Shown here: positions 45,780 through 57,100 of the stretch, piece after piece
Layout: each line of letters opens with the position of its first letter
How positions within the stretch are numbered: position 1 is the first letter of the stretch
From: Azospirillum sp.
Lineage (GTDB): Bacteria; Pseudomonadota; Alphaproteobacteria; CACIAM-22H2
DNA: 64,000 nt
Reading direction: 5' to 3'
NCBI GenBank assembly: GCA_020249045.1
Contig: JADCGK010000003.1
Span: 17,077 to 81,076, forward strand
Made by a program: the position numbers and the translations under genes
Notes under the pieces: model-generated
Databases searched by the model: none
Seen by the model: the letters and a program-made list of their open reading frames with translations, nothing else
Told to the model about the DNA's origin: nothing

Positions 45780-46418
45780 ATGCTGGCGGCAAGTGCGATG
45801 CGCGAACGATCCAAAACAGGCCGCCCGCCCAAGGGCAGCGAAGCCGTCCGCCGCGAGGCGATCCTCGCCGCGGCGCGGCGCGTCTTCGCGCGCGTGGGCT
45901 TCGGGGCCGCGACGATGGACGCGATCGCGCGCGAGGCGAACGCGGCCAAGCGCACGCTGTACGCGCATTTCGGCGACAAGGCCGCGCTGTTCCGCGCCGT
46001 CGTCGCGGCCGAAGCCGGCGCGATCCTCGCGGCGCCGGGGGCGGCGCCGGGTTTGCGCGGCCGGCTGGTCGGCTTCGCGCGCGGCGTGTTCGAGCGCATC
46101 CACACCGAGGAGAAGGCCGCGATCTTCCGCATGGTGGTGGCCGAGGCGCGGGCTTTCCCCGCGCTCGCGCGCGATTTCCACCGCAACGGGCCGGGCCGGG
46201 GCGTCGGCGTGGTCGCAGGCCTGCTGCGCGAGGCCGCGAGCCGGGGCGAGATCGTCTGCGCCGATCCGCGCGCCGAAGCGCGGCGGTTCTCCAGCCTGCT
46301 GATCGGCGATTCGCATCTGCGTTTGGTGCTGGGCCTGGCGAAGCCGCCCACGCGGGCGGCCGCGCGCGCCGAGGCCGAGGCGACGGTCGATTTCTTCCTA
46401 CGGGCGCTCGCCCGCTAG
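45780..46418 (+). CDS. TetR/AcrR-family transcriptional repressor
   Basis: 212 aa. N-terminal HTH ILAAARRVFARVGFGAATMDAIAREANAAKRTLYAHFGDKAALF. Confidence 0.85.
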   Translation: MLAASAMRERSKTGRPPKGSEAVRREAILAAARRVFARVGFGAATMDAIAREANAAKRTLYAHFGDKAALFRAVVAAEAGAILAAPGAAPGLRGRLVGFARGVFERIHTEEKAAIFRMVVAEARAFPALARDFHRNGPGRGVGVVAGLLREAASRGEIVCADPRAEARRFSSLLIGDSHLRLVLGLAKPPTRAAARAEAEATVDFFLRALAR

Positions 46419-46856
46419 ACGCGGCCAGTTCGCGTCGGCTTTGGCGATATTGGCCGTGCGGGACATGTCCCAGCGCGCGCGGATCGCGCGCGAATAATTG
46501 AGGTAGAGGCGCCCGTCGACGATGCGCCATGCGAGGGGGTCGATCCCGGCGCGGTAGCCTTGGGCGACCGCCCAGGCGCAGAACCCGCCGTATCGCGGCG
46601 CATAGCGTTCGGGGTCGGCGGCGAAAGCCGCGCGATTGGCTTCGGAGGAAAACCGCCACACCGCACCGTTCCATTCGACCGTGTGGCCGGGCGTACCGGC
46701 CACCGGCTTGCCCGCGCGGAAATAGGCGACGACGTCGGTGCCCGCGGCGGCCACGCCGTCGGGCGCGTTGACGCCTTGCGCGAACGCGGGTGCGGCGAAC
46801 AGCGCGAAAGCCAGAACGAGGGGACGCAGGACAGCGATCATGGCGATGTTTCGCAT
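46398..46856 (-). CDS. Secreted YHS-domain-like protein
   Basis: 152 aa. Signal peptide. VAYFRAGKPV...RYGGFCAWAV pattern is reminiscent of YHS-domain (seleno)protein families; recalled, not searched. Confidence 0.55.
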   Translation of the reverse strand: MRNIAMIAVLRPLVLAFALFAAPAFAQGVNAPDGVAAAGTDVVAYFRAGKPVAGTPGHTVEWNGAVWRFSSEANRAAFAADPERYAPRYGGFCAWAVAQGYRAGIDPLAWRIVDGRLYLNYSRAIRARWDMSRTANIAKADANWPRLAGERP

Positions 46857-46871
46857 CGGCGCGGACCCGGG

Positions 46872-48014
46872 TTACGTCCCGCCCAGATGCGGGGCAGCGA
46901 GATAATCCTCGGACTGCATCTCGTGCAGGCGGCTGGCCGTGCGCTGGAATTCGAAGGCGTGGTCGCCTTTCGGGTGCAGCCGGTCGGGCGCGTCGTCCGC
47001 GGCCATCACGAGCTTGCAGCGATGCTCGTAAAGCGCGTCGATCAGCGTGACGAAACGGCGCGCTTCGTTGCGGTTGTCGGGCGTCAGGATGGGGACGCCG
47101 TCGAGCACGAGCGTGTGATAGGCGCGCGCCAGCGCCAGATAATCGGCCGCCCCGCGCGCGCCCGCGCACAGGCTTTCGAAATCGCAGAACGCCACCCCGC
47201 CGCCCGCGCGCGGAAGATCCAGATCGCGCCCGCCCACGTCGAGCGTGGCGGGGCCCACCGTCGCGCCCTCGGTCAACGCGGCGAAGGCCTTTTCGAGCTG
47301 CGCGGTCGAACGCGCGCCCACCGGCCAGTGATAGACCGGCATGCCGCGAATGCGGATGCGCCGGTAATCGACCCCGCCGTCGAGTTCGAGCACGTCGAGC
47401 TTGGCCTTGAGCGTGTCGATCGCCGGCAGGAAACGTTCGCGCTGCAGCCCGCCCGCGTAGAGATCGTCGGGCGCGATGTTGGACGTCGCCACGACCACCA
47501 CGCCCTTGTCGAGCATCGCGCCGAACAACCGGCCCAGGATCATCGCGTCGGCGATGTTGGTCACCTGGAATTCGTCGAAGCAGAGCAGCCAGGCCTCCTC
47601 GGCGAGTGCCGCGGCCAAAGGCGGGATCGGGTCGCCGTCGCCCTTCTTGGCCTCGCCCGATTGGCGCCAGGCGTGGATGCGCGCGTGCGTCTCCAGCATG
47701 AACGCGTGGAAATGGACGCGGCGCTTCTTGGCCACCGGCGCGTGGGCGAAGAACAGATCCATCAGCATGGACTTGCCGCGCCCCACCCCGCCGAACATGT
47801 ACAGCCCCGCGGGCGGCGCGCCGGCCTGTTCGAGGCCGAATTTCCGCGCGAAGCCGAGCGAGGCGCGCCAGAAGCCGGGCCGCGGGTCGGGTTTGTAGGC
47901 GGCCAACGCACGCGCCAGCGTGCCGAGTTTTTCCACCGCGAAGGCTTGGGCGGGATCGGGTTTGATCGATCCGTCGGCGAGCTTGGCGCGATAGGCGTCG
48001 AGGATGGTGCTCAT
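46872..48014 (-). CDS. zapE: Cell division protein ZapE (AFG1-like ATPase)
   Basis: 380 aa; cat verified at 48012-48014. Walker A GGVGRGKS, Walker B LLCFDEF. Confidence 0.85.
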   Translation of the reverse strand: MSTILDAYRAKLADGSIKPDPAQAFAVEKLGTLARALAAYKPDPRPGFWRASLGFARKFGLEQAGAPPAGLYMFGGVGRGKSMLMDLFFAHAPVAKKRRVHFHAFMLETHARIHAWRQSGEAKKGDGDPIPPLAAALAEEAWLLCFDEFQVTNIADAMILGRLFGAMLDKGVVVVATSNIAPDDLYAGGLQRERFLPAIDTLKAKLDVLELDGGVDYRRIRIRGMPVYHWPVGARSTAQLEKAFAALTEGATVGPATLDVGGRDLDLPRAGGGVAFCDFESLCAGARGAADYLALARAYHTLVLDGVPILTPDNRNEARRFVTLIDALYEHRCKLVMAADDAPDRLHPKGDHAFEFQRTASRLHEMQSEDYLAAPHLGGT

Positions 48015-48715
48015 CGGCCCAGCAACTCCGCCACGAAAGCGGGTACGAGGACGCCGGCCGGGCCGTAGCGCTTCTCGGCGAAGGCGCTCGCGACCTCGGA
48101 GGGTTCGAGATTTATCTCGACCGTGCGCGCACCCGCCGCGCGCGCGTGTTCGACCAGACCGGCGGCCGGATAGACCGCGCCGGAGGTTCCGATCGACGCG
48201 AAGATCGCGCACGCGCGCACCGCGGCGATCGCCTCGTCCATGAAGAAGGGCATTTCGGTGAACCAAACCACATGCGGGCGCAACGTGCCGTCGTTCCCGC
48301 ACTTCGCGCATACGCTCTCCGCACCCAGATCGACGCGGGCCTCGCGCACGTCCCCGCAGGCGAAGCAGCGCGACTTCAACAATTCGCCGTGGATGTGGAG
48401 CAGGTTTTTCGAGCCCGCGCGTTCGTGCAGATCGTCGACGTTCTGCGTGACGATCGCGACCGGGCCGGGCCATTCGGCCTCCAACCGGGCGAGGGCCGCG
48501 TGTGCGGCGTTCGGGGCGATTTTGGGATCGAGCAGGCCCCGCCGGCGCGCGTTGTAGAAGCCTTGCACCTTGACTGGATCCCGGACGAAGGCGGACGGCG
48601 TCGCCACGTCCTCGATGCGGACCCGCGACCACACGCCGTCCGCGTCGCGGAACGTGTCGATTCCCGACTCCTTGGAAATTCCGGCCCCGGTGAGGACGAC
48701 GATCGAGCCCGCCAT
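48011..48715 (-). CDS. cobB: NAD-dependent protein deacylase (Sir2 family, CobB-type)
   Basis: Start MAGSIVVLTGAGIS verified (cat at 48713-48715). QNVDxLH, catalytic HG, and CxxC...CxxC zinc ribbon. ATGA overlap with zapE. Confidence 0.8.
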   Translation of the reverse strand: MAGSIVVLTGAGISKESGIDTFRDADGVWSRVRIEDVATPSAFVRDPVKVQGFYNARRRGLLDPKIAPNAAHAALARLEAEWPGPVAIVTQNVDDLHERAGSKNLLHIHGELLKSRCFACGDVREARVDLGAESVCAKCGNDGTLRPHVVWFTEMPFFMDEAIAAVRACAIFASIGTSGAVYPAAGLVEHARAAGARTVEINLEPSEVASAFAEKRYGPAGVLVPAFVAELLGR

Positions 48716-48785
48716 GCCCCGGGAAATTACCAGCCCGCCGGTCGCATGCACGGGAAATATCGGGCGAACCGCCCCCCGCGGCGCG

Positions 48786-49325
48786 TCAATCGCGCAGGAA
48801 GAATTCGGCCTCCTGGGTATAGACCGGCCCGCCCGCGCGGCGCAGGCTCGAATAGATCGCGAAGCGATCCACATGGATCGGCCCCGCCTTGAACAGCGCG
48901 TGGCGCGTCAGGAATTCGCGGATTTTTTCGAGCGGGGCGTCCTGCAGCCGGGCGAGGGTGACGTGCGGCGCGAATTTGCGCGGCGCGGGATCGAAGCCTT
49001 CGCGCCGGCAAGCTTCGTCGATCCGCCGGTGCAGCGCATCCAAGGCCGGCGATTTGCGCACGCCCGCCCACAGAACGCGGACGTCCTCGCCGGTCGAAAA
49101 ATGCCCCACGCCGTCGAGCTCGATGTCGAACGGCGCGGCGCGCACGCCCATCATCGCGTAGCCCAAATCCTCCGCCCGGTCCTCGGGCACGTCGCCGACG
49201 AAGCGCAAGGTCAGGTGGAACGCGTCGCTCTCGACCCAATCCGCTCCCGGCACCCCGCCGGTCAGCGCATCGAGCCGCGCGCGGATATCCTCCGGAAAGC
49301 CGAGTGCCACGAACAGGCGCAGCAT
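48786..49325 (-). CDS. thpR: RNA 2',3'-cyclic phosphodiesterase (2H family ThpR/LigT)
   Basis: 179 aa. Two HxT/S motifs (FHLTLRF and PHVTLARL). Confidence 0.8.
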   Translation of the reverse strand: MLRLFVALGFPEDIRARLDALTGGVPGADWVESDAFHLTLRFVGDVPEDRAEDLGYAMMGVRAAPFDIELDGVGHFSTGEDVRVLWAGVRKSPALDALHRRIDEACRREGFDPAPRKFAPHVTLARLQDAPLEKIREFLTRHALFKAGPIHVDRFAIYSSLRRAGGPVYTQEAEFFLRD

Positions 49326-49329
49326 GCGC

Positions 49330-50373
49330 TCACGGGCAGGGGTTGGGGTTGGCGACGTGGACGGCGTCGAGGGCCGCCAGCACGTCGGCGGGCAAAGTCA
49401 CGTCGATCGCGGCGATGTTGGTCTCGAGCTGCTCGAGCGTCGTCGCCCCGATGATGACCGCGGTGACGAACGGCCGGGCGAGCGCGAAGGCGATCGCCAT
49501 TTGGGCGGGATCGAGGCCCGCCGCGCGCGCCACGCGCACGTATTCCTTGGCCGCGGGCTCGGCGCGCGGCGTCGAGTAGCGTTTGAAGCGTTCGTAGAGC
49601 GTGAGGCGGCCGCGCGGCGGCCGCGCGCCGTCGAAATACTTGCCCACCAGCACGCCCATGCCGAGCGCGGAATAGGCCAGCAGACCGACGTTCTCCTTCA
49701 ACGCCATTTCCGCGAGACCGACCTCGAAACTGCGGTTCAGCAGCGAATACGCGTTTTGGATCGAGACGATGCGTTGGGCGCCGCTCGCCTCGGCCGCACG
49801 CAGATGGCGCGCGACGCCCCAGGGCGTTTCGTTGGAGACGCCGAAATGGCGGATCTTGCCTTCCCGGCGGAGCTTCTCCATCGCCGCGACGGTTTCCTCG
49901 ATGGGTGCGCCTTGATCGGCATCGGGCTTGTGCACGTAGTCGAGTTGGCCGAAGCGGTTGGCCGGCCGGTCGGGGGTATGGGTCTGGTAAAGATCGATGT
50001 AGTCGGTCCGCAGGCGGCGCAGCGAAGCTTCGACCGCCGCGCGCAGATTGGCCTCGTCCAACGGCGGGGCGTTGCGCGCGTAGGCGAGGCCCTGGCCCTT
50101 GCCCGAAACCTTGGTCGCGACGACGAGCTTGTCGCGCTTGGCCTTGTTCTTGGCGAGCCAAGTGCCGAGGATTTCCTCGGTGCGGCCGTAGGTCTCGGCC
50201 TTCGGCGGGACCGGATACATTTCCGCCGCGTCGATGAAGTCCACGCCGCGCGCGACGGCCGCATCGAGCTGGGCGTGGCCCTCGGCTTCGGTGTTCTGTT
50301 CGCCCCAGGTCATCGTGCCCAGGCAGATGCGCGAGACGCGGCGGCCGGTGTTTCCGAGTTCGGCGTGTTTCAT
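49330..50373 (-). CDS. NADP(H)-dependent aldo/keto reductase (Tas-like)
   Basis: 347 aa. MKHAELGNTGRRVSRICLGTMTWG ... IDAAEMY ... AKR signature. Confidence 0.85.
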   Translation of the reverse strand: MKHAELGNTGRRVSRICLGTMTWGEQNTEAEGHAQLDAAVARGVDFIDAAEMYPVPPKAETYGRTEEILGTWLAKNKAKRDKLVVATKVSGKGQGLAYARNAPPLDEANLRAAVEASLRRLRTDYIDLYQTHTPDRPANRFGQLDYVHKPDADQGAPIEETVAAMEKLRREGKIRHFGVSNETPWGVARHLRAAEASGAQRIVSIQNAYSLLNRSFEVGLAEMALKENVGLLAYSALGMGVLVGKYFDGARPPRGRLTLYERFKRYSTPRAEPAAKEYVRVARAAGLDPAQMAIAFALARPFVTAVIIGATTLEQLETNIAAIDVTLPADVLAALDAVHVANPNPCP

Positions 50374-51266
50374 GACGCGATGCGATGTCCGTAATCGAGA
50401 GGATGGACCGAAACGAGTTCGGCGGCGGCGTAGCAGACGAGAATCACAACCGCGAGTTCGCGGCCGATCGACCGGGCGAGCGCCGCGCCGGCACCCGGCT
50501 CGCCTCGCGCCAGCGCGGGCGTGGCGGCGAGCTTATGGCGGATGGCGAGGCCCAGCGCCGCCGCGACGAAGGCGAGCTTGGCGATCAACGCCCAGCCGTG
50601 CCACGCCGCGATCAGCAGATCCAAGCGCCCAACCAGATAGAAGATCAAGCCGCCGCCCGTCGCGATCATGACGCCGACGGCGACCGCGGCACCGCGCGCC
50701 CAGGCGCGGATCAACCCGGCATCGTTGCGCCGTGCCGCGTCGATCATCGGCAGCAGACCGCCGATCCAATAGGCCACCGCGAGCAGATGCAGCGCCACCA
50801 GGACCGAGAGCTCCTGGCGCGGGCGGTAGAGCGTCGAATGGCCCATGCCCGCATAGCTCGCGGCGATCAGCAGCGCCCCGATGGGGGCGAGGACCGCCGC
50901 GACGCGCGCGGGCGCAAGCCAGCTCAACACCAACGCCAATCCGAGCGCGCGCAACCCGAACGCATCGCCCACCCGGCCGCGCGCGATCGCTTGCCAAATC
51001 ACCGCGTCGAACGGATCCCCGCCGCCCGCCAATTGGCCCGCGCGCACGAACAGCGAGAGCACCGACAGCGCGAGCCCGGCGATGGCGAAGCCTGCGGCCA
51101 TGCGGATGGTCGCGGCGCGCGCGTCGGGCGCGAGCCGGTCGGCGAACGCGGCGAGATAAAGCGCAAGACCCGCCGCGCTGAGGCCGGCGAAGTTGTAGCC
51201 CGCGCGCACGACCACCGCGATCGCGTCCCACGGATCGGGATTTGGCTGGAGATGTTCGAGGATCAT
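50370..51266 (-). CDS. copD: Copper resistance protein CopD-like membrane protein
   Basis: 298 aa; cat verified at 51264-51266. About 8 TM helices with conserved His residues. ATGA overlap with the downstream AKR start. Confidence 0.7.
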   Translation of the reverse strand: MILEHLQPNPDPWDAIAVVVRAGYNFAGLSAAGLALYLAAFADRLAPDARAATIRMAAGFAIAGLALSVLSLFVRAGQLAGGGDPFDAVIWQAIARGRVGDAFGLRALGLALVLSWLAPARVAAVLAPIGALLIAASYAGMGHSTLYRPRQELSVLVALHLLAVAYWIGGLLPMIDAARRNDAGLIRAWARGAAVAVGVMIATGGGLIFYLVGRLDLLIAAWHGWALIAKLAFVAAALGLAIRHKLAATPALARGEPGAGAALARSIGRELAVVILVCYAAAELVSVHPLDYGHRIAS

Positions 51267-51619
51267 TCGACGACCGAAAACGAAATCGTCCCGCCGATGG
51301 GATGGCCATCCGCCGACAGCGCGCGCCACTCCAGACGATGGCGGCCGGGCGTCAGCGCCGGATGGCGCGCGCGCCACGTCGCGGCGGGTGTCGCGTCGCG
51401 GGCGCGCGAAAGCGGCACTTCGATGCCCGAAGGCGCGAACAGACGCAAGGCCGTCAGCACGGCCAGTTCGTCGAAGCGCAACGTTATTTCGCCGGCGCCG
51501 GACGCGATCGCGGCATCCGGTGACGGGTGCGAATGGGCGAGGCGCGAATGCGCGGCGGCCGCGCGCGCGCCCAGAAACGCCGCGCCGGCGGCCAGAAAAA
51601 GACGGCGTCGCACGTTCAT
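51263..51619 (-). CDS. copC: Periplasmic copper chaperone CopC-like protein
   Basis: 118 aa; cat verified at 51617-51619. Signal peptide, then HSRLAHSHPSPD (N-terminal His of mature CopC). ATGA overlap with copD. Confidence 0.7.
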   Translation of the reverse strand: MNVRRRLFLAAGAAFLGARAAAAHSRLAHSHPSPDAAIASGAGEITLRFDELAVLTALRLFAPSGIEVPLSRARDATPAATWRARHPALTPGRHRLEWRALSADGHPIGGTISFSVVE

Positions 51620-52743
51620 CCGAACAGCGCCAAAACGCCCGTATAGCCGTAAAGCCGCGCGTTGGAGATCTCGCCGTTGCAGAACATCCCCGCGATGGGA
51701 ATGTTTCCCAGCGAGTCGCGCAAGATCGCGCGCTCGGCCGAGCCGGGGCCGAACATGTTCGGTCCGCGCGCCAGGCACGAAAAATAGAGGCCCGCCTTGG
51801 GCCGCCCGACCGCCGCCTTGGCGCGCGCGAGCATGGTTTCGAGATCGCGCCGCGCCGCGGCCGCGTCGCGGCGCACGAAGAACAGCCTGTCGCCCGGTTC
51901 GACCGCATGGCCCACCGCGATCAGCCCGCGCTCGGGGTCGATGCCGGTCAGATGCCGAACGAGATAGTCGCGCTCGTCCCGGCCGGGCGTCGGGAATGCG
52001 ACGAGCGTGACGGCGGCGGCCGCACGAAGCTCGTGGTCGCGGACGATGCCCGCGGCCTCCTTGAAGACCTCCAGCGCCGGGCGCCCGTCGATGGTCATCA
52101 GCACGTTGTCTTCGGCCGCCGTGGCGCGATGCACGGGACCGAGCGGCACGCAGCCTTGGCTCAAGCCCATCGCCACGCGCACGTCCCGGCCGATCAGCAC
52201 GCCCGACGCGCCCTCGTCGACCACCTTGCCCGCGATTTGCGCGAGGCCGCGCTCGCCCGACGACAGACCGCCCGCAAGAAAGGCGCCACTGGTTTCCGCG
52301 AGGTCGCCGAGGATCTCCGAAAGCCCGCCGCAGCGCGGATCGGCGTGCACGACGCCGAGTGCCGGCTTCGCGCCGGCGATCCAGGCTTCGAGATCGGCCG
52401 GCGTTTCGCCCGGTTCGGTCAGGTTGGGGACCAGACGGTAGGCCTCGCGCGGCAGATCGAGCGCGAGTGCGACCAAAGCGGGCGCGTCGAACACCTCGTC
52501 CTCGCCGAGCACGCCCGAACCGACCGAGCCGACCCAGTCGCCGATTCCCGACACGCGCTTGACGACGGCGAGGATGTCCTCCAGCCGGTCGGCGAGGGCG
52601 TCGGTCGCGTAAAGGAAGCCTAGCCGACCGCCCGGCAGATCGCGCGCGAGCTTCTCGCCGAGTTCGACGGCGAGCGCGCCCCAATTCGCCGGATCGGATC
52701 CGGCGGTTTGCGCGAAGGCGACGGCGGGTGCGATTTGCGCCAT
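51616..52743 (-). CDS. FIST (N+C) sensory domain protein
   Basis: 375 aa; cat verified at 52741-52743. C-terminal ...GMFCNGEISN typical of FIST_C. ATGA overlap with copC. Confidence 0.7.
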   Translation of the reverse strand: MAQIAPAVAFAQTAGSDPANWGALAVELGEKLARDLPGGRLGFLYATDALADRLEDILAVVKRVSGIGDWVGSVGSGVLGEDEVFDAPALVALALDLPREAYRLVPNLTEPGETPADLEAWIAGAKPALGVVHADPRCGGLSEILGDLAETSGAFLAGGLSSGERGLAQIAGKVVDEGASGVLIGRDVRVAMGLSQGCVPLGPVHRATAAEDNVLMTIDGRPALEVFKEAAGIVRDHELRAAAAVTLVAFPTPGRDERDYLVRHLTGIDPERGLIAVGHAVEPGDRLFFVRRDAAAARRDLETMLARAKAAVGRPKAGLYFSCLARGPNMFGPGSAERAILRDSLGNIPIAGMFCNGEISNARLYGYTGVLALFG

Positions 52744-52797
52744 GCCGCATCCTCGCGCATATAGCGCCGCGAGGATACGAAAAAGGGAATCGCCGTC

Positions 52798-53172
52798 GTG
52801 ACGCCGTTGATCGCTTTGCATACCGCATGCGCAATCGGCGCGGTGTCGTTGGGTATCGCCGTGTTGATGCGGCCCAAAGGCACCGCCGCGCACAAAGCCG
52901 TCGGCCGCGTGTGGGTCGGGCTGATGGCGGCGACCGCCCTTTCCTCGTTTTGGATCCTGCAAATCCGCGACGGGGCCGGCTTCAGCCCCATCCACGCGCT
53001 GTCGGCGATCACGCTGGCGGCGCTCGCGCGCGGCGTTTGGGCGGCACGCAAAGGTTACGTGCGCCAGCACCGGATCAACATGCTGTCGGCCTATGCGGGC
53101 GCTGCGATCGCCGGGGCGTTCACGTTGCTGCCCAACCGGATCATCGGCGGCTGGTTGTTCGGCGGCGGGTGA
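52798..53172 (+). CDS. Small integral membrane protein (DUF2306-like)
   Basis: 124 aa, four predicted TM helices. Divergent from the FIST-cop operon. Confidence 0.5.
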   Translation: MTPLIALHTACAIGAVSLGIAVLMRPKGTAAHKAVGRVWVGLMAATALSSFWILQIRDGAGFSPIHALSAITLAALARGVWAARKGYVRQHRINMLSAYAGAAIAGAFTLLPNRIIGGWLFGGG

Positions 53173-53174
53173 AC

Positions 53175-53852
53175 TCAACCGCCCGCGAGGAATCGCCGGA
53201 CATGCGGCAGGATATTGGCGACCATCGTATCCACGCCCTGCCCGTTCGGATGGATGCCGTCGGAAAGATTGAGTTCGGGGCGCGCCGCAACGCCTTCGAG
53301 CAGGAACGGATAAAGCGGCACGCCGTGCTTGGCGGCGAGGCGCGGGAAAACGGCGGCGAAACGGTCGCGATATTCGGTGCCCATATTCGGCGGGGCGAGC
53401 ATGCCCGCGAGCATCGGCTTGACGCCGCGCGCCTTCATCCGCTCGAGGATGCGGTCGAGATTGCGTTCCATCGCGTCGACGTCGAGGCCGCGCAAGCCGT
53501 CGTTCGCCCCCAAGGCCACCAGCGCGAACTCCGGCGGGCGCTGGCCCAGCGCCCAATCGACGCGCGCCAAGCCGCCCGCGGACGTATCGCCCGAAACGCC
53601 GGCGTTCACGACCTGGACGTCCACGCCCGCGGCACGCAACGCGGCTTCCAAGCGCACCGGAAAAGCTTCGCGCGCTTGAATGTTGTAGCCCGCCGACAGC
53701 GAATCCCCGAGCACGAGCAAGCGCGGCGGCGTTTGCGCCGCGGCCGGAATCGCCCATAAAGCCCAAAGACTTGCCGCAAACGCGTTGAATCCGCGCCGCG
53801 ACGGCCCATATCCGGAGGAACCGCGTCGCGATTCAAGGTGGTTTTCGTCCAT
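53175..53852 (-). CDS. tesA: SGNH/GDSL arylesterase, thioesterase I (TesA)-like, secreted
   Basis: GDSLSAG block I with catalytic Ser; DGIHPN block V. Start codon (cat at 53850-53852) overlaps the divergent ybbA-like ATG. The resulting 40-aa pre-signal extension suggests the true start could be an internal non-ATG codon. Confidence 0.65.
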   Translation of the reverse strand: MDENHLESRRGSSGYGPSRRGFNAFAASLWALWAIPAAAQTPPRLLVLGDSLSAGYNIQAREAFPVRLEAALRAAGVDVQVVNAGVSGDTSAGGLARVDWALGQRPPEFALVALGANDGLRGLDVDAMERNLDRILERMKARGVKPMLAGMLAPPNMGTEYRDRFAAVFPRLAAKHGVPLYPFLLEGVAARPELNLSDGIHPNGQGVDTMVANILPHVRRFLAGG

Positions 53853-54558
53853 GTCCCAATCCGCCGATCCGATTTTGCGCCTCTCCGGCGTCCACCTGAA
53901 GCTGGCGAGCCAAGCGGGCGAGGTCAATATCCTACGCGGCGTCGATTTGTCGGTCGCACCGGGTGAAAGCGTCGCGGTGGTCGGCCCGTCGGGCTCGGGC
54001 AAATCGACGATGATGATGATCGTCGCGGGTCTCGAACGGCCGACGCAAGGAACGGTCCACGTCGCGGGCCAGGATCTGACGGCCCTCGACGAGGACGGTT
54101 TGGCGCTCTATCGCCGCCGCTCGATCGGCATCGTGTTCCAGGCGTTCCATCTGATCCCGACGATGACGGCACTCGAGAACGTCGCGATCCCGCTGGAATT
54201 CGCGGGCGACCGCGATGCATGGGGCAAGGCCAAGAAGGCGCTCGAATCGGTCGGCCTGGGCCACCGGCTGACGCATTATCCGGGCCAGATGTCGGGCGGC
54301 GAACAGCAACGCACCGCCCTTGCCCGCGCGGTCGTCGCGGAACCCAAGCTGCTGCTGGCCGACGAGCCCACCGGCAATCTCGACGTCGCCACCGGCACGG
54401 GCATCGTCGATCTGATGTTCGATTTGCGCGCGCGCCTGGGCACCGCACTCGTGCTCATCACGCACGATCCGGGGCTCGCGCGCCGGTGCGACCGGGCGGT
54501 GCGCATGGAGGACGGGCGCCTGTCCGCCCATCCCGCGATCCTCGCCGCGGCGCAGTAA
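53851..54558 (+). CDS. ABC transporter ATP-binding protein (YbbA/LolD family)
   Basis: ATG at 53851 verified. Walker A GPSGSGKST, signature MSGGEQQRTALARAV, Walker B LLLADEPT. Confidence 0.85.
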   Translation: MSQSADPILRLSGVHLKLASQAGEVNILRGVDLSVAPGESVAVVGPSGSGKSTMMMIVAGLERPTQGTVHVAGQDLTALDEDGLALYRRRSIGIVFQAFHLIPTMTALENVAIPLEFAGDRDAWGKAKKALESVGLGHRLTHYPGQMSGGEQQRTALARAVVAEPKLLLADEPTGNLDVATGTGIVDLMFDLRARLGTALVLITHDPGLARRCDRAVRMEDGRLSAHPAILAAAQ

Positions 54559-54559
54559 C

Positions 54560-57100
54560 ATGCACAATTCGGCCGATGCGGCGCGCTGGTCGCTCGCTTT
54601 CGCCCTCGCCAAGCGCGAACTGCGCGGCGGCGTGAAGGGCTTCCGCGTCTTCATGGCGTGTTTGATGCTGGGCGTGGCCGCGATCGCGGGCGTGGGCTCG
54701 CTGGCCGAAGGCGTGCGCGAAGCCTTGCGCCAGGACGCGCGGACGATCCTGGGCGGGGATTTCGAACTCGCCTTCACGCATCGCGAAGCCAACGATGCCC
54801 AGCGCCGCTTCCTCGACGCCTCGGGCCGCGTGACTCTGGTGCAGGAAATGCGCGCGATGGCGCGCACGCCCGACGAGCGCTTGCTCGTCGAACTGAAGTC
54901 GATCGAACCCGACGCCTATCCGCTGCTGGGAACGGTGCGCTTGTCCGACGGCCTGGGACTGCAAGCCGCCTTGGGCCAGGGCCGCGACGGCGTGTGGGGG
55001 GCGGCGGTCGAACGCGCGGTGCTCAACCGTCTGGGCGCCGCCGTCGGCGGGCGCATCCAGGTCGGCGACGGCGTTTACGTCGTGCGCGCGGTGGTGGAAA
55101 GCGAGCCCGACCGGTCGGCGAACGTCTTCACGCTGGGTCCGCGCGTGATGGTCGCGCGCGAATCGCTGGCGCAGACCAACCTGGTCCAGCCCGGCGCGTT
55201 GATCCGCTATCAGTACCGCGTGCTGCTGAACCCCGGCGTCGAGCCCGCCGCATGGTCGGAGGAATTGAAGCGCCGTTTCCCCGATGCGGGCTGGCGCATC
55301 CGCGGCACGACCGAGGCCGCACCCGGCCTGCAGCGCTGGGTCGATCGCATCGCGATGTTCCTGACGCTGGTCGGTTTGACCGCGTTGTTGGTCGGCGGCG
55401 TGGGCGTGGCCAACGCGGTGCGCGCCTATCTCGACGGGCGCACGACCACCATCGCAACGCTCAAATGCCTCGGCGCGCCGGGTGCGTTGATCATGCGCGT
55501 CTATCTGCTGCAGATCCTGGCGCTCGCCTCGATCGGCATCCTTGCGGGCCTCGCGGTGGGCGCGATCGTGCCCGCGGCCGTCGCCCCATTGGTCGCCGAA
55601 CGGCTGACGGTGGAAGCGCGCGCGGGCATTTATCCCGTGCCGCTCGGCATGGGCCTCGCGTTCGGATTGCTGACCGCGCTGGCCTTTTCGCTGTGGCCGC
55701 TCGCGCGCGCGCGCGAAGTGCCGCCCGCCGCCCTGTTCCGCGATCTGATCGCGCCCGCGCGGCGGTGGCCGCGCGCGCACTACGTCGCCTTCGTCGTCGC
55801 CGCGATCCTGGGCCTCGCGGGGCTGGCGGTCGCCGCGTCGATCGACAAGCGCCTCGGCGTCGCGTTCTGCGTCGCCGCGGCGGGGACATTCGTGCTGTTC
55901 CGCATCGCCGCGTTGGGCATCCAGCGTCTGGCGCGCGCCGCCGGGCGCGTGCGCAATCCGGGCTTGCGTTTGGCGCTGGCCAACATGCACCGGCCCGGCA
56001 GCCCGACGCCCGGCATCGTGCTGTCGCTGGGTCTGGGGCTGACGGTGCTGACGCTGATCGCCCAGGTTCAGGGCAATTTCGGCCGGCAGCTCGCCGAGCA
56101 ATTGCCGCAGATGGCGCCGTCGTTCTTCTTCATCGACATCCAGCCCGATCAGATCGACGCGTTCAACGCGCTGGTCCGCGCGCATCCCGGCGTCGGCCAG
56201 ATCCGCGAAGTGCCCGCCTTGCGCGGACGCATCGCCAGATTGAACGGCGTGCCGGTCGACCAAGCGCCCATCGCACCCGACGCGCAATGGGCGGTGGGCA
56301 ACGACCGGGGCCTCACCTATACCGGGCCGATGCCCGCGGGCACGCGATTGGTCGCGGGCGAATGGTGGCCGGCCGACTACGCGGGGCCGCCGCTGGTTTC
56401 CTTCGACGCCCAGATCGCGCGCGGCTTCGGCCTGGGCGTGGGCGACACGATCACGATCAACGTGCTGGGCGTCGAGGTCGACGCGAAGATCGCCAATCTG
56501 CGCGCCGTCGATTGGACGAGCCTGGGGATCAACTTCACGTTGACCTTCGCCCCCGGCACGCTGGAGGGCGCGCCGCAGACCTGGATCGCGACGGCCCAGG
56601 TCGCCGAGGCGCACGAAGACGCGCTCGAACGCGCGGTCACGTCCGCGTTCCCGAACGTGTCGTCGATCCGGGTCAAGCGCGCGTTGGCGACCGCGCAGGA
56701 GACCGTGCAAGGCATCGCCGCCGCGGCGCGCGTGACGGCGGCGATCACGCTGATCGCGGGTGTGCTGGTGCTGGCGGGCGCCATCGTCGCCACGCATCGC
56801 CGGCGTGTTTACGACGCCGTGGTCCTGAAGGCGCTGGGCGCCACGCGACGGGACGTGATGCGCGCCTTCCTGGCCGAATTCGCGCTGCTGGGCGGGGCGG
56901 CCGCGTCGGTGGCGGCGATCGTGGGCACCGTCGGGGCGTGGGCGATCGTCGGCGAATACATGCGCGTGGAATTCGTTCCGCTGCCCGGCACCATCGTCGG
57001 GACGGTTCTGGGTGCCGCGGCCGTGGTGATGCTGCTGGGCCTTGCCGGAACCTGGCGCGCCCTGGGTCAAAAAGCGGCGCCGCTGCTGCGCAATGCCTGA
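54560..57100 (+). CDS. ABC transporter permease with two FtsX domains (YbbP-like)
   Basis: ATG at 54560 verified, 2 nt after the ybbA-like stop. 846 aa, 10 predicted TM helices, two large periplasmic loops. Confidence 0.8.
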   Translation: MHNSADAARWSLAFALAKRELRGGVKGFRVFMACLMLGVAAIAGVGSLAEGVREALRQDARTILGGDFELAFTHREANDAQRRFLDASGRVTLVQEMRAMARTPDERLLVELKSIEPDAYPLLGTVRLSDGLGLQAALGQGRDGVWGAAVERAVLNRLGAAVGGRIQVGDGVYVVRAVVESEPDRSANVFTLGPRVMVARESLAQTNLVQPGALIRYQYRVLLNPGVEPAAWSEELKRRFPDAGWRIRGTTEAAPGLQRWVDRIAMFLTLVGLTALLVGGVGVANAVRAYLDGRTTTIATLKCLGAPGALIMRVYLLQILALASIGILAGLAVGAIVPAAVAPLVAERLTVEARAGIYPVPLGMGLAFGLLTALAFSLWPLARAREVPPAALFRDLIAPARRWPRAHYVAFVVAAILGLAGLAVAASIDKRLGVAFCVAAAGTFVLFRIAALGIQRLARAAGRVRNPGLRLALANMHRPGSPTPGIVLSLGLGLTVLTLIAQVQGNFGRQLAEQLPQMAPSFFFIDIQPDQIDAFNALVRAHPGVGQIREVPALRGRIARLNGVPVDQAPIAPDAQWAVGNDRGLTYTGPMPAGTRLVAGEWWPADYAGPPLVSFDAQIARGFGLGVGDTITINVLGVEVDAKIANLRAVDWTSLGINFTLTFAPGTLEGAPQTWIATAQVAEAHEDALERAVTSAFPNVSSIRVKRALATAQETVQGIAAAARVTAAITLIAGVLVLAGAIVATHRRRVYDAVVLKALGATRRDVMRAFLAEFALLGGAAASVAAIVGTVGAWAIVGEYMRVEFVPLPGTIVGTVLGAAAVVMLLGLAGTWRALGQKAAPLLRNA

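What the first reader, a model, noticed from the sequence alone, without database searches (positions are those of the whole stretch)
49330..52743. FIST sensory-domain protein translationally coupled to CopC-CopD and an aldo-keto reductase
Four consecutive minus-strand genes (FIST, copC, copD, AKR) are linked by ATGA overlaps at 51616-51619, 51263-51266 and 50370-50373. thpR follows 4 nt later, and a secreted YHS-like protein (46398-46856) ends the same strand run. FIST is a putative small-ligand sensor domain and is rarely associated with copper-handling genes. The coupling suggests stoichiometric co-expression of a cytoplasmic sensor module with a periplasmic copper chaperone and inner-membrane CopD.
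Basis: partly seen in the sequence, partly recalled or inferred. Interest (0 to 1): 0.55.

Follow-up and report, generated by a model that had tools for sequence, protein, structure and literature searches.

The report
copCD cassette inserted in FIST operon
A copper-uptake gene pair (copC-copD) was slotted into an older, widely conserved FIST–aldo-keto reductase–ThpR operon in one small group of Tagaea-like bacteria, so the FIST–copper linkage is real in the sequence but looks like a local evolutionary accident, not a sensor–transporter system.

Summary
The sequence observation is correct. The genes are FIST (51616-52743), copC (51263-51619), copD (50370-51266), an aldo-keto reductase (AKR, 49330-50373) and thpR (48786-49325), all on the minus strand. 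There are three ATGA stop/start overlaps and a 4-nt gap before thpR. All five identities pass Pfam.

The functional reading is not supported. In 80 species-representative genomes carrying the same FIST ortholog (41-73% identity), none has copC or copD nearby. Instead, 63 of 77 informative loci have FIST followed within tens of bases by thpR, directly (32) or via the AKR (31).

copCD sits between FIST and AKR only in a shallow Tagaea-like clade (FIST 83-85% identical). Inside that clade it is already being lost. One relative has a clean FIST-AKR junction. Another has a defence-like ATPase in its place and keeps only the last ~34 codons of copD.

Of 63 metagenomic loci with relatives of this CopD, the 62 outside the clade have no FIST.

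CopC/CopD keep the residues needed for Cu(II) binding and uptake and are under purifying selection. They are probably a working copper importer expressed from a housekeeping operon. This is ordinary operon accretion and of low interest. The unexplained conserved FIST-ThpR pairing is the more intriguing by-product.

The parts
51616..52743 (-). FIST_N + FIST_C protein, 375 aa, cytoplasmic (no signal peptide or TM segment); first gene of the operon
   Evidence: Pfam PF08495 81.8 bits and PF10442 84 bits. AF2 model pLDDT 92.4. Best PDB fold match is the FBXO22 FIST domain, E 1e-12. More than 2,000 homologs, mostly stand-alone 365-395 aa alphaproteobacterial proteins.
51263..51619 (-). copC, 118 aa: periplasmic Cu(II)-binding protein with a signal peptide (RR motif, cleavage AAA|H), of the Cu(II)-only type
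   Evidence: Pfam CopC 65.1 bits. Best PDB match is CopC 6NFQ; the N-terminal His after the cleavage site and the D104-G-H106 motif align to the CopC/PcoC/YobA Cu(II) ligands. There is no Met in the mature protein. dN/dS 0.22-0.37.
50370..51266 (-). copD, 298 aa: inner-membrane CopD/YebZ-type putative copper importer
   Evidence: Pfam CopD 40.2 bits, NCBIfam copper_CopD 81 bits (below the equivalog cutoff of 195). About 8 hydrophobic segments. Invariant H143 and H160 align to YebZ His135 and His154, which are needed for uptake (PMC11923076). dN/dS 0.21-0.33.
49330..50373 (-). NADP(H)-dependent aldo-keto reductase (Tas/PRK10625-like), 347 aa
   Evidence: Pfam 235.5 bits. NCBIfam PRK10625 406.8 bits against a cutoff of 415. 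It follows FIST directly in 32 of 80 related loci, in 31 of them with thpR next.
48786..49325 (-). thpR, RNA 2',3'-cyclic phosphodiesterase (2H family), 179 aa; the conserved partner of FIST
   Evidence: TIGR02258 154.8 bits against a cutoff of 65.7. Both H-x-T motifs are visible (FHLTLRF, PHVTLAR). It lies downstream of FIST in 63 of 77 informative loci.
51616..51619 (-). ATGA overlap, FIST stop / copC start
   Evidence: In four clade relatives the stop is immediately followed by ATG (TAGATG, TGAATG, TAAATG).
51263..51266 (-). ATGA overlap, copC stop / copD start
   Evidence: A 4-nt overlap is also present in L081, L083 and L086.
50370..50373 (-). ATGA overlap, copD stop / AKR start
   Evidence: It is conserved in all copCD+ relatives and survives in L082 behind the copD stub.
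52744..52797 (.). 54-nt divergent intergenic region between DUF2306 (+) and FIST (-); presumed operon promoter and 5' UTR
   Evidence: Conserved sequence (CCTTTTT..TGTCCTCGG..TTATGCGCAAGGATG) is shared by copCD+ and copCD- relatives, so no copper-specific operator was gained. No sigma-70 consensus hit.
48011..48724 (-). Sir2/CobB-type deacetylase; part of the older conserved synteny
   Evidence: Pfam SIR2 145 bits. Present downstream in many related loci.
46872..48014 (-). AFG1/ZapE-like ATPase; overlaps the Sir2 stop by ATGA (48011-48014)
   Evidence: Pfam AFG1_ATPase 399 bits. Overlap read.
46398..46856 (-). Secreted YHS-domain (seleno)protein-family member; older synteny, not linked to the arrival of copCD
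   Evidence: NCBIfam NF041384 151.5 bits. Present in copCD- relatives L001 and L084.

Best explanation
FIST-AKR-thpR is an old operon that is co-linear across many alphaproteobacterial families. It is transcribed divergently from a DUF2306 / tesA-like / ybbA-ybbP cluster.

In the ancestor of one shallow Tagaea-like clade, a two-gene copC-copD cassette replaced the ~20-40 nt FIST-AKR spacer. The cassette became welded into the operon by abutting or overlapping stop and start codons. copC, copD and AKR are therefore probably translated by reinitiation after the preceding cistron (inferred).

The cassette encodes a Cu(II)-only CopC and an 8-helix CopD with both uptake-essential histidines. By analogy with E. 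coli YobA-YebZ and B. subtilis YcnJ, it most likely brings low levels of copper across the inner membrane for cuproenzyme supply (inferred by homology).

Its expression rides on the pre-existing FIST promoter, which did not change. FIST and CopCD are therefore co-expressed by history, not because they work together. FIST's real conserved partner is ThpR, and the function of that pair is unknown.
For: Distribution among FIST orthologs:
- 0 of 80 GTDB species-representative loci with the FIST ortholog contain CopC or CopD, by tblastn, a CopD HMM and a CopC HMM.
- In 63 of 77 informative loci FIST is followed by thpR, with median spacers of 28 nt (direct) and 41 nt (via AKR), leaving no room for copCD.

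Distribution within the clade:
- copCD lies between FIST and AKR in the window and in L081, L083, L086/87, L088/89, L094 and L157-159.
- It is absent in L085 (83% FIST identity), L084 (74%) and L001 (73%).
- L082 (83%) carries an AAA_21 ATPase there but retains the last ~34 codons of copD plus the ATGA junction with AKR.
- An NJ tree of FIST+AKR+ThpR puts all copCD+ loci, L082 and L085 in one clade, with L084/L001 outside it.

Distribution among CopD relatives:
- The 62 metagenomic loci with CopD relatives outside the clade (39-69% identity) have no FIST. CopC precedes CopD wherever the upstream part of copD is on the contig.
- The nearest outgroup contexts are copC-copD-DUF411 in Roseomonas, copC-copD-hypothetical and Crp-like/PF03601-copC-copD.
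- A published survey of 5,804 proteobacterial copD neighbourhoods does not mention FIST (PMC11923076).

State of the cassette:
- dN/dS for copC and copD is 0.21-0.37, and their dS is similar to that of the flanking genes. This indicates functional genes that co-diverged with the locus.
- GC3 is 0.78-0.86, like the neighbours.
- The upstream regulatory region is the same in copCD+ and copCD- relatives.
- The Cu(II) ligands and the YebZ-type histidines are conserved.
Against: - The FIST/copC junction has stayed at 0 or -4 nt in every copCD+ lineage across dS of about 0.4-1.0. That could reflect selection for coupled expression with FIST rather than inertia.
- No expression data exist.
- L085's clean junction could be ancestral polymorphism or recombination rather than loss, so the number of losses is uncertain.
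- Only this CopD subfamily and this FIST orthogroup were surveyed, not all FIST or all CopD families.
- The direction of transport by CopD is inferred from homologs that are about 30% identical.
Confidence: 0.75

Rival explanations
1. FIST and CopCD form a functional module in this clade. The cytoplasmic FIST protein would sense or receive copper (or a copper-dependent signal) imported by CopCD, or would regulate CopD. The tight translational coupling would set their stoichiometry.
For: Three consecutive 4-nt overlaps. The FIST-copC junction is kept at 0 or -4 nt in all copCD+ relatives. The cassette is under purifying selection. This FIST orthogroup has invariant His and Cys residues (H133, C198, C323) that could in principle bind a metal or cofactor.
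Against: The invariant His and Cys residues are equally invariant in the orthologs that have no copCD. The FIST_C motif containing C323 is shared even with human FBXO22. The linkage is absent in 80 of 80 orthologous loci and in all 62 CopD loci outside the clade. copCD was lost or replaced in L082 and is absent in L085 while FIST stayed intact. No regulatory change is seen upstream.
Confidence: 0.1
2. copCD was ancestral to the FIST-AKR-thpR operon and has been lost repeatedly. On this view the window shows the original state, not an insertion.
For: Losses do occur: the copD stub in L082 and the clean junction in L085. The window branches at the base of its clade.
Against: This would need loss in every one of 80 other species-level lineages spanning several families, including the immediate outgroups L084 and L001. 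The closest CopD relatives outside the clade (no more than 57% identity) sit in unrelated contexts. Half of the loci have FIST directly followed by thpR.
Confidence: 0.05
3. The cassette functions in copper resistance or periplasmic sequestration (the classical 'copper resistance protein C/D' annotation), not in uptake.
For: Database names say so. CopC/CopD were first described in resistance operons (my own knowledge).
Against: There is no copA, copB, multicopper oxidase or copRS nearby. CopC lacks the Met-rich Cu(I) site typical of resistance-type CopC/PcoC. The stand-alone copCD pairs YobA-YebZ and YcnJ mediate uptake (PMC11923076, PMC13344008). NCBIfam equivalog scores for resistance-type CopC and CopD are far below their cutoffs.
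Confidence: 0.1

Closest known systems
[quoted passage not shown]
   Same: A periplasmic CopC with an N-terminal His and D-x-H Cu(II) site is followed by a CopD with about eight hydrophobic segments (crude hydropathy scan) that carries both histidines required for uptake (window H143/H160 = YebZ H135/H154; PMC11923076). The copC and copD genes overlap or abut.
   Different: Identity to YobA and YebZ is only about 30%. There is no YebY/DUF2511, YcnI or YcnK partner and no copper-responsive regulator. The pair is embedded between unrelated cytoplasmic genes (FIST, AKR), and all three junctions are 4-nt overlaps.
Acetobacteraceae (Roseomonas/Roseococcus) copC-copD-DUF411 loci
   Same: These are the closest CopD and CopC relatives outside the clade (about 50-55% and 44-48% identity). 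They have the same copC-then-copD order with a 4-nt overlap.
   Different: They are followed by a DUF411 (CopG-like) gene and have no FIST, AKR or thpR.
NosP (stand-alone FIST-domain haem/NO sensors, e.g. P. aeruginosa PA1975, B. pseudomallei BPSS1647)
   Same: A single-domain FIST_N+FIST_C protein of similar size that is the first gene of an operon (PMC12570481).
   Different: NosP genes sit next to a histidine kinase and a c-di-GMP response regulator. Here, and in the close relatives examined, the neighbours are DUF2306 and AKR, thpR or copC. Haem binding was not tested and no direct sequence comparison with a NosP could be made.
FBXO22 FIST domain (human)
   Same: Best structural match (Foldseek E 1e-12, TM 0.53-0.60). 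The FIST_C motif around C323 (F-x-C-x-x-R-G) is shared.
   Different: It is a eukaryotic F-box ubiquitin-ligase substrate receptor with 13-14% identity.

Membership tests
FIST domain proteins (Pfam PF08495 + PF10442) | Significant match to both FIST_N and FIST_C profiles over their full length | tested here: met
   81.8 and 84 bits against cutoffs of 23.2 and 28.5; profile coverage 2-189/189 and 1-131/131.
FIST domain proteins (Pfam PF08495 + PF10442) | FIST fold | tested here: met
   AF2 model pLDDT 92.4. The top PDB hits are all FBXO22 FIST, E 1e-12 to 8e-10.
NosP (FIST-type NO/haem sensors) | Encoded next to a histidine kinase and/or a c-di-GMP-metabolising response regulator | tested here: not met
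   The window neighbours are DUF2306 and copC. In L081-L087 no HisKA/HATPase or GGDEF/EAL/HD-GYP gene is adjacent to FIST; the nearest kinase lies beyond ybbP on the other strand. This was not systematically tested in L001-L080.
NosP (FIST-type NO/haem sensors) | Binds haem and responds to NO | not testable with these tools
   No NosP sequence or structure was available for comparison; the primary NosP papers are not held.
CopC family, Cu(II)-only class | N-terminal His of the mature protein plus a C-terminal D-x-H motif as Cu(II) ligands | tested here: met
   The AAA|H24 cleavage context and D104-G-H106 align with CopC 6NFQ, PcoC and YobA and are conserved in all six CopC sequences aligned. 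In 6NFR, a variant chain of 6NFQ, the residue aligned to H106 is Phe.
CopC family, Cu(II)-only class | Absence of the Met-rich Cu(I) site | tested here: met
   No Met in the mature sequence (residues 24-118).
CopD family (Pfam PF05425), YebZ-type importers | Pfam CopD match above the gathering score | tested here: met
   40.2 bits against 32.1. The NCBIfam equivalog copper_CopD score of 81 is below its 195 cutoff, so this is not the Pseudomonas-type equivalog.
CopD family (Pfam PF05425), YebZ-type importers | Eight TM helices and the two conserved histidines (YebZ H135, H154) required for uptake | tested here: met
   BLASTP alignment to E. coli YebZ places window H143 and H160 on H135 and H154. 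Both are invariant in 27 homologs. A crude hydropathy scan gives 8 segments. The role of the histidines is from PMC11923076.
CopD family (Pfam PF05425), YebZ-type importers | Actual copper import activity | not testable with these tools
   Needs copper-uptake assays.
ThpR / 2H phosphoesterase | TIGR02258 equivalog score and two H-x-T/S motifs | tested here: met
   154.8 bits against 65.7. HLT and HVT motifs are in the translation.
Tas-type NADP(H) aldo-keto reductase (PRK10625) | Equivalog-level score | tested here: inconclusive
   406.8 bits against a cutoff of 415. Pfam Aldo_ket_red is clearly met.

The most novel reading that the evidence does not exclude
Two readings are not excluded.

(a) In this Tagaea-like clade the FIST protein has been co-opted as a cytoplasmic partner of CopCD, as a sensor or acceptor, making it the first FIST linked to metal trafficking.

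(b) More plausibly novel: the stand-alone FIST protein and the RNA 2',3'-cyclic phosphodiesterase ThpR form a conserved, so far undescribed two-gene unit. They are adjacent in 63 of 77 alphaproteobacterial loci spanning several families, often with a Tas-like AKR between them. This hints that this FIST subfamily senses or acts on a nucleotide or RNA-end-related small molecule, not NO.
Probability: 0.15. Interest if true: 0.6.

Novelty: new member of a known kind. Interest (0 to 1): 0.22.

Why it matters
It matters mainly as a caution. Tight translational coupling (three ATGA overlaps in a row) does not by itself indicate a functional partnership. Here comparative genomics shows that a copper-uptake cassette was grafted into a pre-existing operon and is already being lost in sister lineages.

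It also gives a datable example of operon accretion in which an inserted gene pair loses independent ribosome-binding sites and becomes reinitiation-dependent.

The by-product is the strong conservation of FIST next to ThpR. This is a lead on the still poorly understood bacterial FIST domain and on the unknown physiological role of ThpR.

Tried and rejected
- Foldseek against afdb50 was not available, so no comparison with AlphaFold models of named NosP proteins was possible.
- The primary NosP papers (PMC5468770, PMC10478957) are not held, so the haem ligand position could not be checked.
- The sigma-70 promoter and terminator scan gave counts at shuffle level (1 vs 0.6; 6 vs 5.9) and was uninformative for this high-GC alphaproteobacterium.
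- Rfam found no match in the whole window.
- The repeat search found no direct or inverted repeats bracketing copCD; only GC-rich chance matches appeared. No transposon or integron signature explains the insertion.
- GC and GC3 of copCD do not differ from the flanks, so there is no compositional evidence of recent transfer.
- A first dN/dS script hung in MAFFT. I redid it with pairwise alignment.
- My crude GC3-based gene caller for counting ATGA overlaps window-wide missed copC and Sir2/AFG1. It only shows that such overlaps occur elsewhere.
- A literature search for FIST with CopC/CopD returned only two genome-survey papers containing the words (not read); a search for FIST with ThpR/LigT returned nothing relevant.
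- I considered whether the extra 460-1,000 nt between FIST and the next gene in L011, L013 and L071 hid a copC. The CopC and CopD HMMs found nothing there.
Full report
**1. What is in the sequence**

The region is about 70% GC. On the minus strand I read an uninterrupted run of genes.

| Gene | Coordinates | Size |
|---|---|---|
| FIST | 51616-52743 | 375 aa |
| copC | 51263-51619 | 118 aa |
| copD | 50370-51266 | 298 aa |
| aldo-keto reductase (AKR) | 49330-50373 | 347 aa |
| thpR | 48786-49325 | 179 aa |
| Sir2 | 48011-48724 | |
| AFG1/ZapE-like ATPase | 46872-48014 | |
| YHS-family secreted protein | 46398-46856 | |

- Pfam and NCBIfam confirm every identity.
- FIST is divergent from a DUF2306 membrane-protein gene (52798-53172, + strand), with only 54 nt between them.
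- FIST has a GAGGA motif before its ATG. copC, copD and AKR have no recognisable Shine-Dalgarno sequence, so reinitiation coupling is a fair inference.
- The same ATGA arrangement joins Sir2 and AFG1 and at least three other pairs elsewhere in the window. It is the house style of this genome, not a peculiarity of FIST-copCD.

**2. Neighbourhood of the FIST orthogroup**

The FIST protein has thousands of homologs, mostly stand-alone alphaproteobacterial proteins of 365-395 aa. The identical protein is deposited from a MAG labelled Azospirillum sp., and the identical CopD from one labelled Tagaea sp..

I used an alignment of 28 homologs to scan the GTDB species-representative genomes. That gave 594 confirmed loci, of which the best 80 were kept (41-73% identity; labelled Tagaea, Azospirillum, Stellaceae, Kiloniellales, Thalassospiraceae, Defluviicoccus, Acetobacterales, Pelagibius and others).

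- None of the 80 contains copC or copD, by tblastn, by an HMM built from 120 CopD homologs or by a CopC HMM.
- The conserved order is ybbP/ybbA-like ABC transporter (divergent), sometimes a tesA-like SGNH hydrolase and DUF2306, then FIST, then either AKR-thpR (31 loci) or thpR directly (32 loci).
- That is 63 of the 77 loci where the contig continues. Estimated spacers have medians of 41 and 28 nt.
- Sir2 and AFG1 often follow further downstream.
- The ancient, conserved unit is therefore FIST-(AKR)-thpR.

**3. Where copCD occurs**

Among the closest relatives (FIST 83-85% identical):

| Locus | State between FIST and AKR |
|---|---|
| L081, L083 (= L157-159), L086/L087, L088/89, L094 | copC-copD present |
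| L085 (83% identity) | absent; 21-nt spacer with its own GAAGGAAG ribosome-binding site |
| L084 (74%), L001 (73%) | absent |
| L082 (83%, Tagaea MAG) | ~2 kb with an AAA_21 ATPase (weak AriA/GajA/AbiL-type matches); the last ~34 codons of copD, 85% identical, remain fused by ATGA to AKR |

The L082 stub shows that copCD was there and was later overwritten.

An NJ tree of concatenated FIST+AKR+ThpR places the window, L081, L083, L086, L082 and L085 in one clade. The window is the earliest branch, and L084/L001 form the sister group. The simplest history is one gain at the base of this clade followed by at least one and probably two losses.

**4. Reverse test**

- CopD's closest relatives outside the clade are at most 57% identical and come mainly from Roseomonas, Roseococcus and Falsiroseomonas.
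- Their contexts are copC-copD-DUF411, copC-copD-hypothetical or Crp-like/PF03601-copC-copD.
- A scan of the metagenome collection with a CopD alignment returned 63 loci. CopC precedes CopD wherever the upstream part of copD is on the contig. FIST is found in none, and AKR appears only in the single clade member, L094.
- A published neighbourhood survey of 5,804 proteobacterial copD genes does not mention FIST (PMC11923076).

**5. State of the cassette**

- copC and copD are intact in all carriers. dN/dS is 0.21-0.37, against 0.10-0.27 for FIST, AKR and thpR. Their dS is like that of the flanks, so they have co-diverged with the locus and are under purifying selection.
- Base composition and GC3 match the neighbours.
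- No repeats bracket the cassette and no Rfam element is present.
- The region upstream of FIST is conserved between copCD+ and copCD- relatives, so no copper operator arrived with the cassette.
- In four relatives the FIST stop is immediately followed by the copC ATG (TAGATG, TGAATG, TAAATG). In the window it overlaps.

**6. What the proteins probably do**

*CopC.*
- It has a signal peptide with an RR motif that ends in AAA|H.
- The N-terminal His and the D104-G-H106 motif align with the Cu(II) ligands of CopC 6NFQ, PcoC and E. coli YobA.
- There is no Met in the mature protein, so no Cu(I) site.

*CopD.*
- It has about eight hydrophobic segments.
- Its invariant H143 and H160 align with YebZ His135 and His154.
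- Mutating those residues reduces or abolishes copper uptake in E. coli (PMC11923076).
- YcnJ has likewise been proposed as a copper importer (PMC13344008).
- With no copA, copB or copRS nearby, uptake is the most likely function (inference by homology).

*FIST.*
- The model is high-confidence (pLDDT 92.4). Its only strong PDB neighbour is the FBXO22 FIST domain, with weak secondary matches to Toblerone-fold hydrolases.
- Bacterial stand-alone FIST proteins characterised so far are the NosP haem/NO sensors, which sit beside histidine kinases (PMC12570481). That genomic signature is absent here.
- What this FIST senses is unknown.

**7. Verdict**

The interpretation that the coupling reflects a sensor-transporter partnership is not supported. 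The linkage is restricted to one shallow clade, is being eroded within it, and is absent from every other FIST or CopD neighbourhood examined.

The best explanation is insertion of a functional copper-uptake cassette into a constitutive operon (confidence about 0.75). A true FIST-copper link remains possible but unlikely (about 0.1). The finding is ordinary. The most interesting residue is the unexplained, widely conserved FIST-thpR adjacency.

Noticed in passing
window 48786-52743; loci L001-L080: The stand-alone FIST gene is followed by thpR (RNA 2',3'-cyclic phosphodiesterase) in 63 of 77 informative alphaproteobacterial loci, directly in 32 and via a Tas-like AKR in 31. Spacers are tens of nt. 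I found no literature linking FIST and ThpR.
   Followed up: partly
L082 7129-9153: In one Tagaea MAG copCD has been replaced by about 2 kb encoding an AAA_21 ATPase, possibly split into two ORFs. It has weak PADLOC matches to AriA, AbiLi, GajA and PtuA (E 2e-11 at best), so it may be a defence gene. A 34-codon copD stub is left fused to AKR.
   Followed up: partly
L085 6860-10522: Between thpR and Sir2 there is a tandem duplication of a three-gene set (about 162, 263 and 132 aa, twice). None of the products has a Pfam hit.
   Followed up: no
L083, L085, L086, L157 (between the SGNH hydrolase and DUF2306); L082, L085, L086: A HigB-like toxin / HTH antitoxin pair and a mandelate racemase/muconate-lactonizing-enzyme-family gene are variably inserted upstream of FIST in close relatives. 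The neighbourhood is a hot spot for small insertions.
   Followed up: no
L090 4552-7252; L111: In Roseomonas alkaliterrae and one metagenome contig the related copC-copD(-DUF411) is followed by a Sir2 gene (32-33% identical to the window's Sir2). Sir2 also lies downstream of copCD in the window. This may be coincidence or a trace of the donor context.
   Followed up: no
window 48011-48014: The Sir2 stop and the AFG1/ZapE start share an ATGA overlap, a fourth one in the same strand run. The pair also overlaps by 4 nt in L081, L083 and L084.
   Followed up: yes
L155 4001-4568: Another isolated copD 3' fragment (29 codons, 66% identical) lies next to an ORF with a C-G-C-C-G-G-W motif that looks CopG/DUF411-like, downstream of an ORF with an H-H-Q-G-A-I-D-M motif that looks DUF305-like (both from motif recall, not HMM-tested). 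This would be a second example of copD decay.
   Followed up: no
window 51550-51619 (CopC N-terminus) and L081, L083, L086: All four clade CopC signal peptides carry twin arginines (RRRLFL, GRRTLL, SRRKLA, SRRNFL). This suggests Tat rather than Sec export, which I did not expect for a CopC (own impression, not checked against the literature).
   Followed up: no
FIST model md02009ac9421 (window 51616-52743): After FBXO22, the next PDB fold matches are Toblerone-fold cyclic amide hydrolases (cyanuric acid hydrolase, barbiturase) and chorismatase. E-values are 1e-6 to 3.5e-3 but TM-scores are only about 0.3. This is a weak hint that the FIST fold is related to small-molecule-binding enzyme folds.
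   Followed up: no
window 53175-57100: The divergent neighbours are a tesA-like SGNH hydrolase and a ybbA/ybbP-like ABC ATPase and FtsX permease. Gene content resembles what I recall of the E. coli tesA-ybbA-ybbP cluster (not checked), and the ABC genes are conserved next to FIST in most of the 80 loci.
   Followed up: partly
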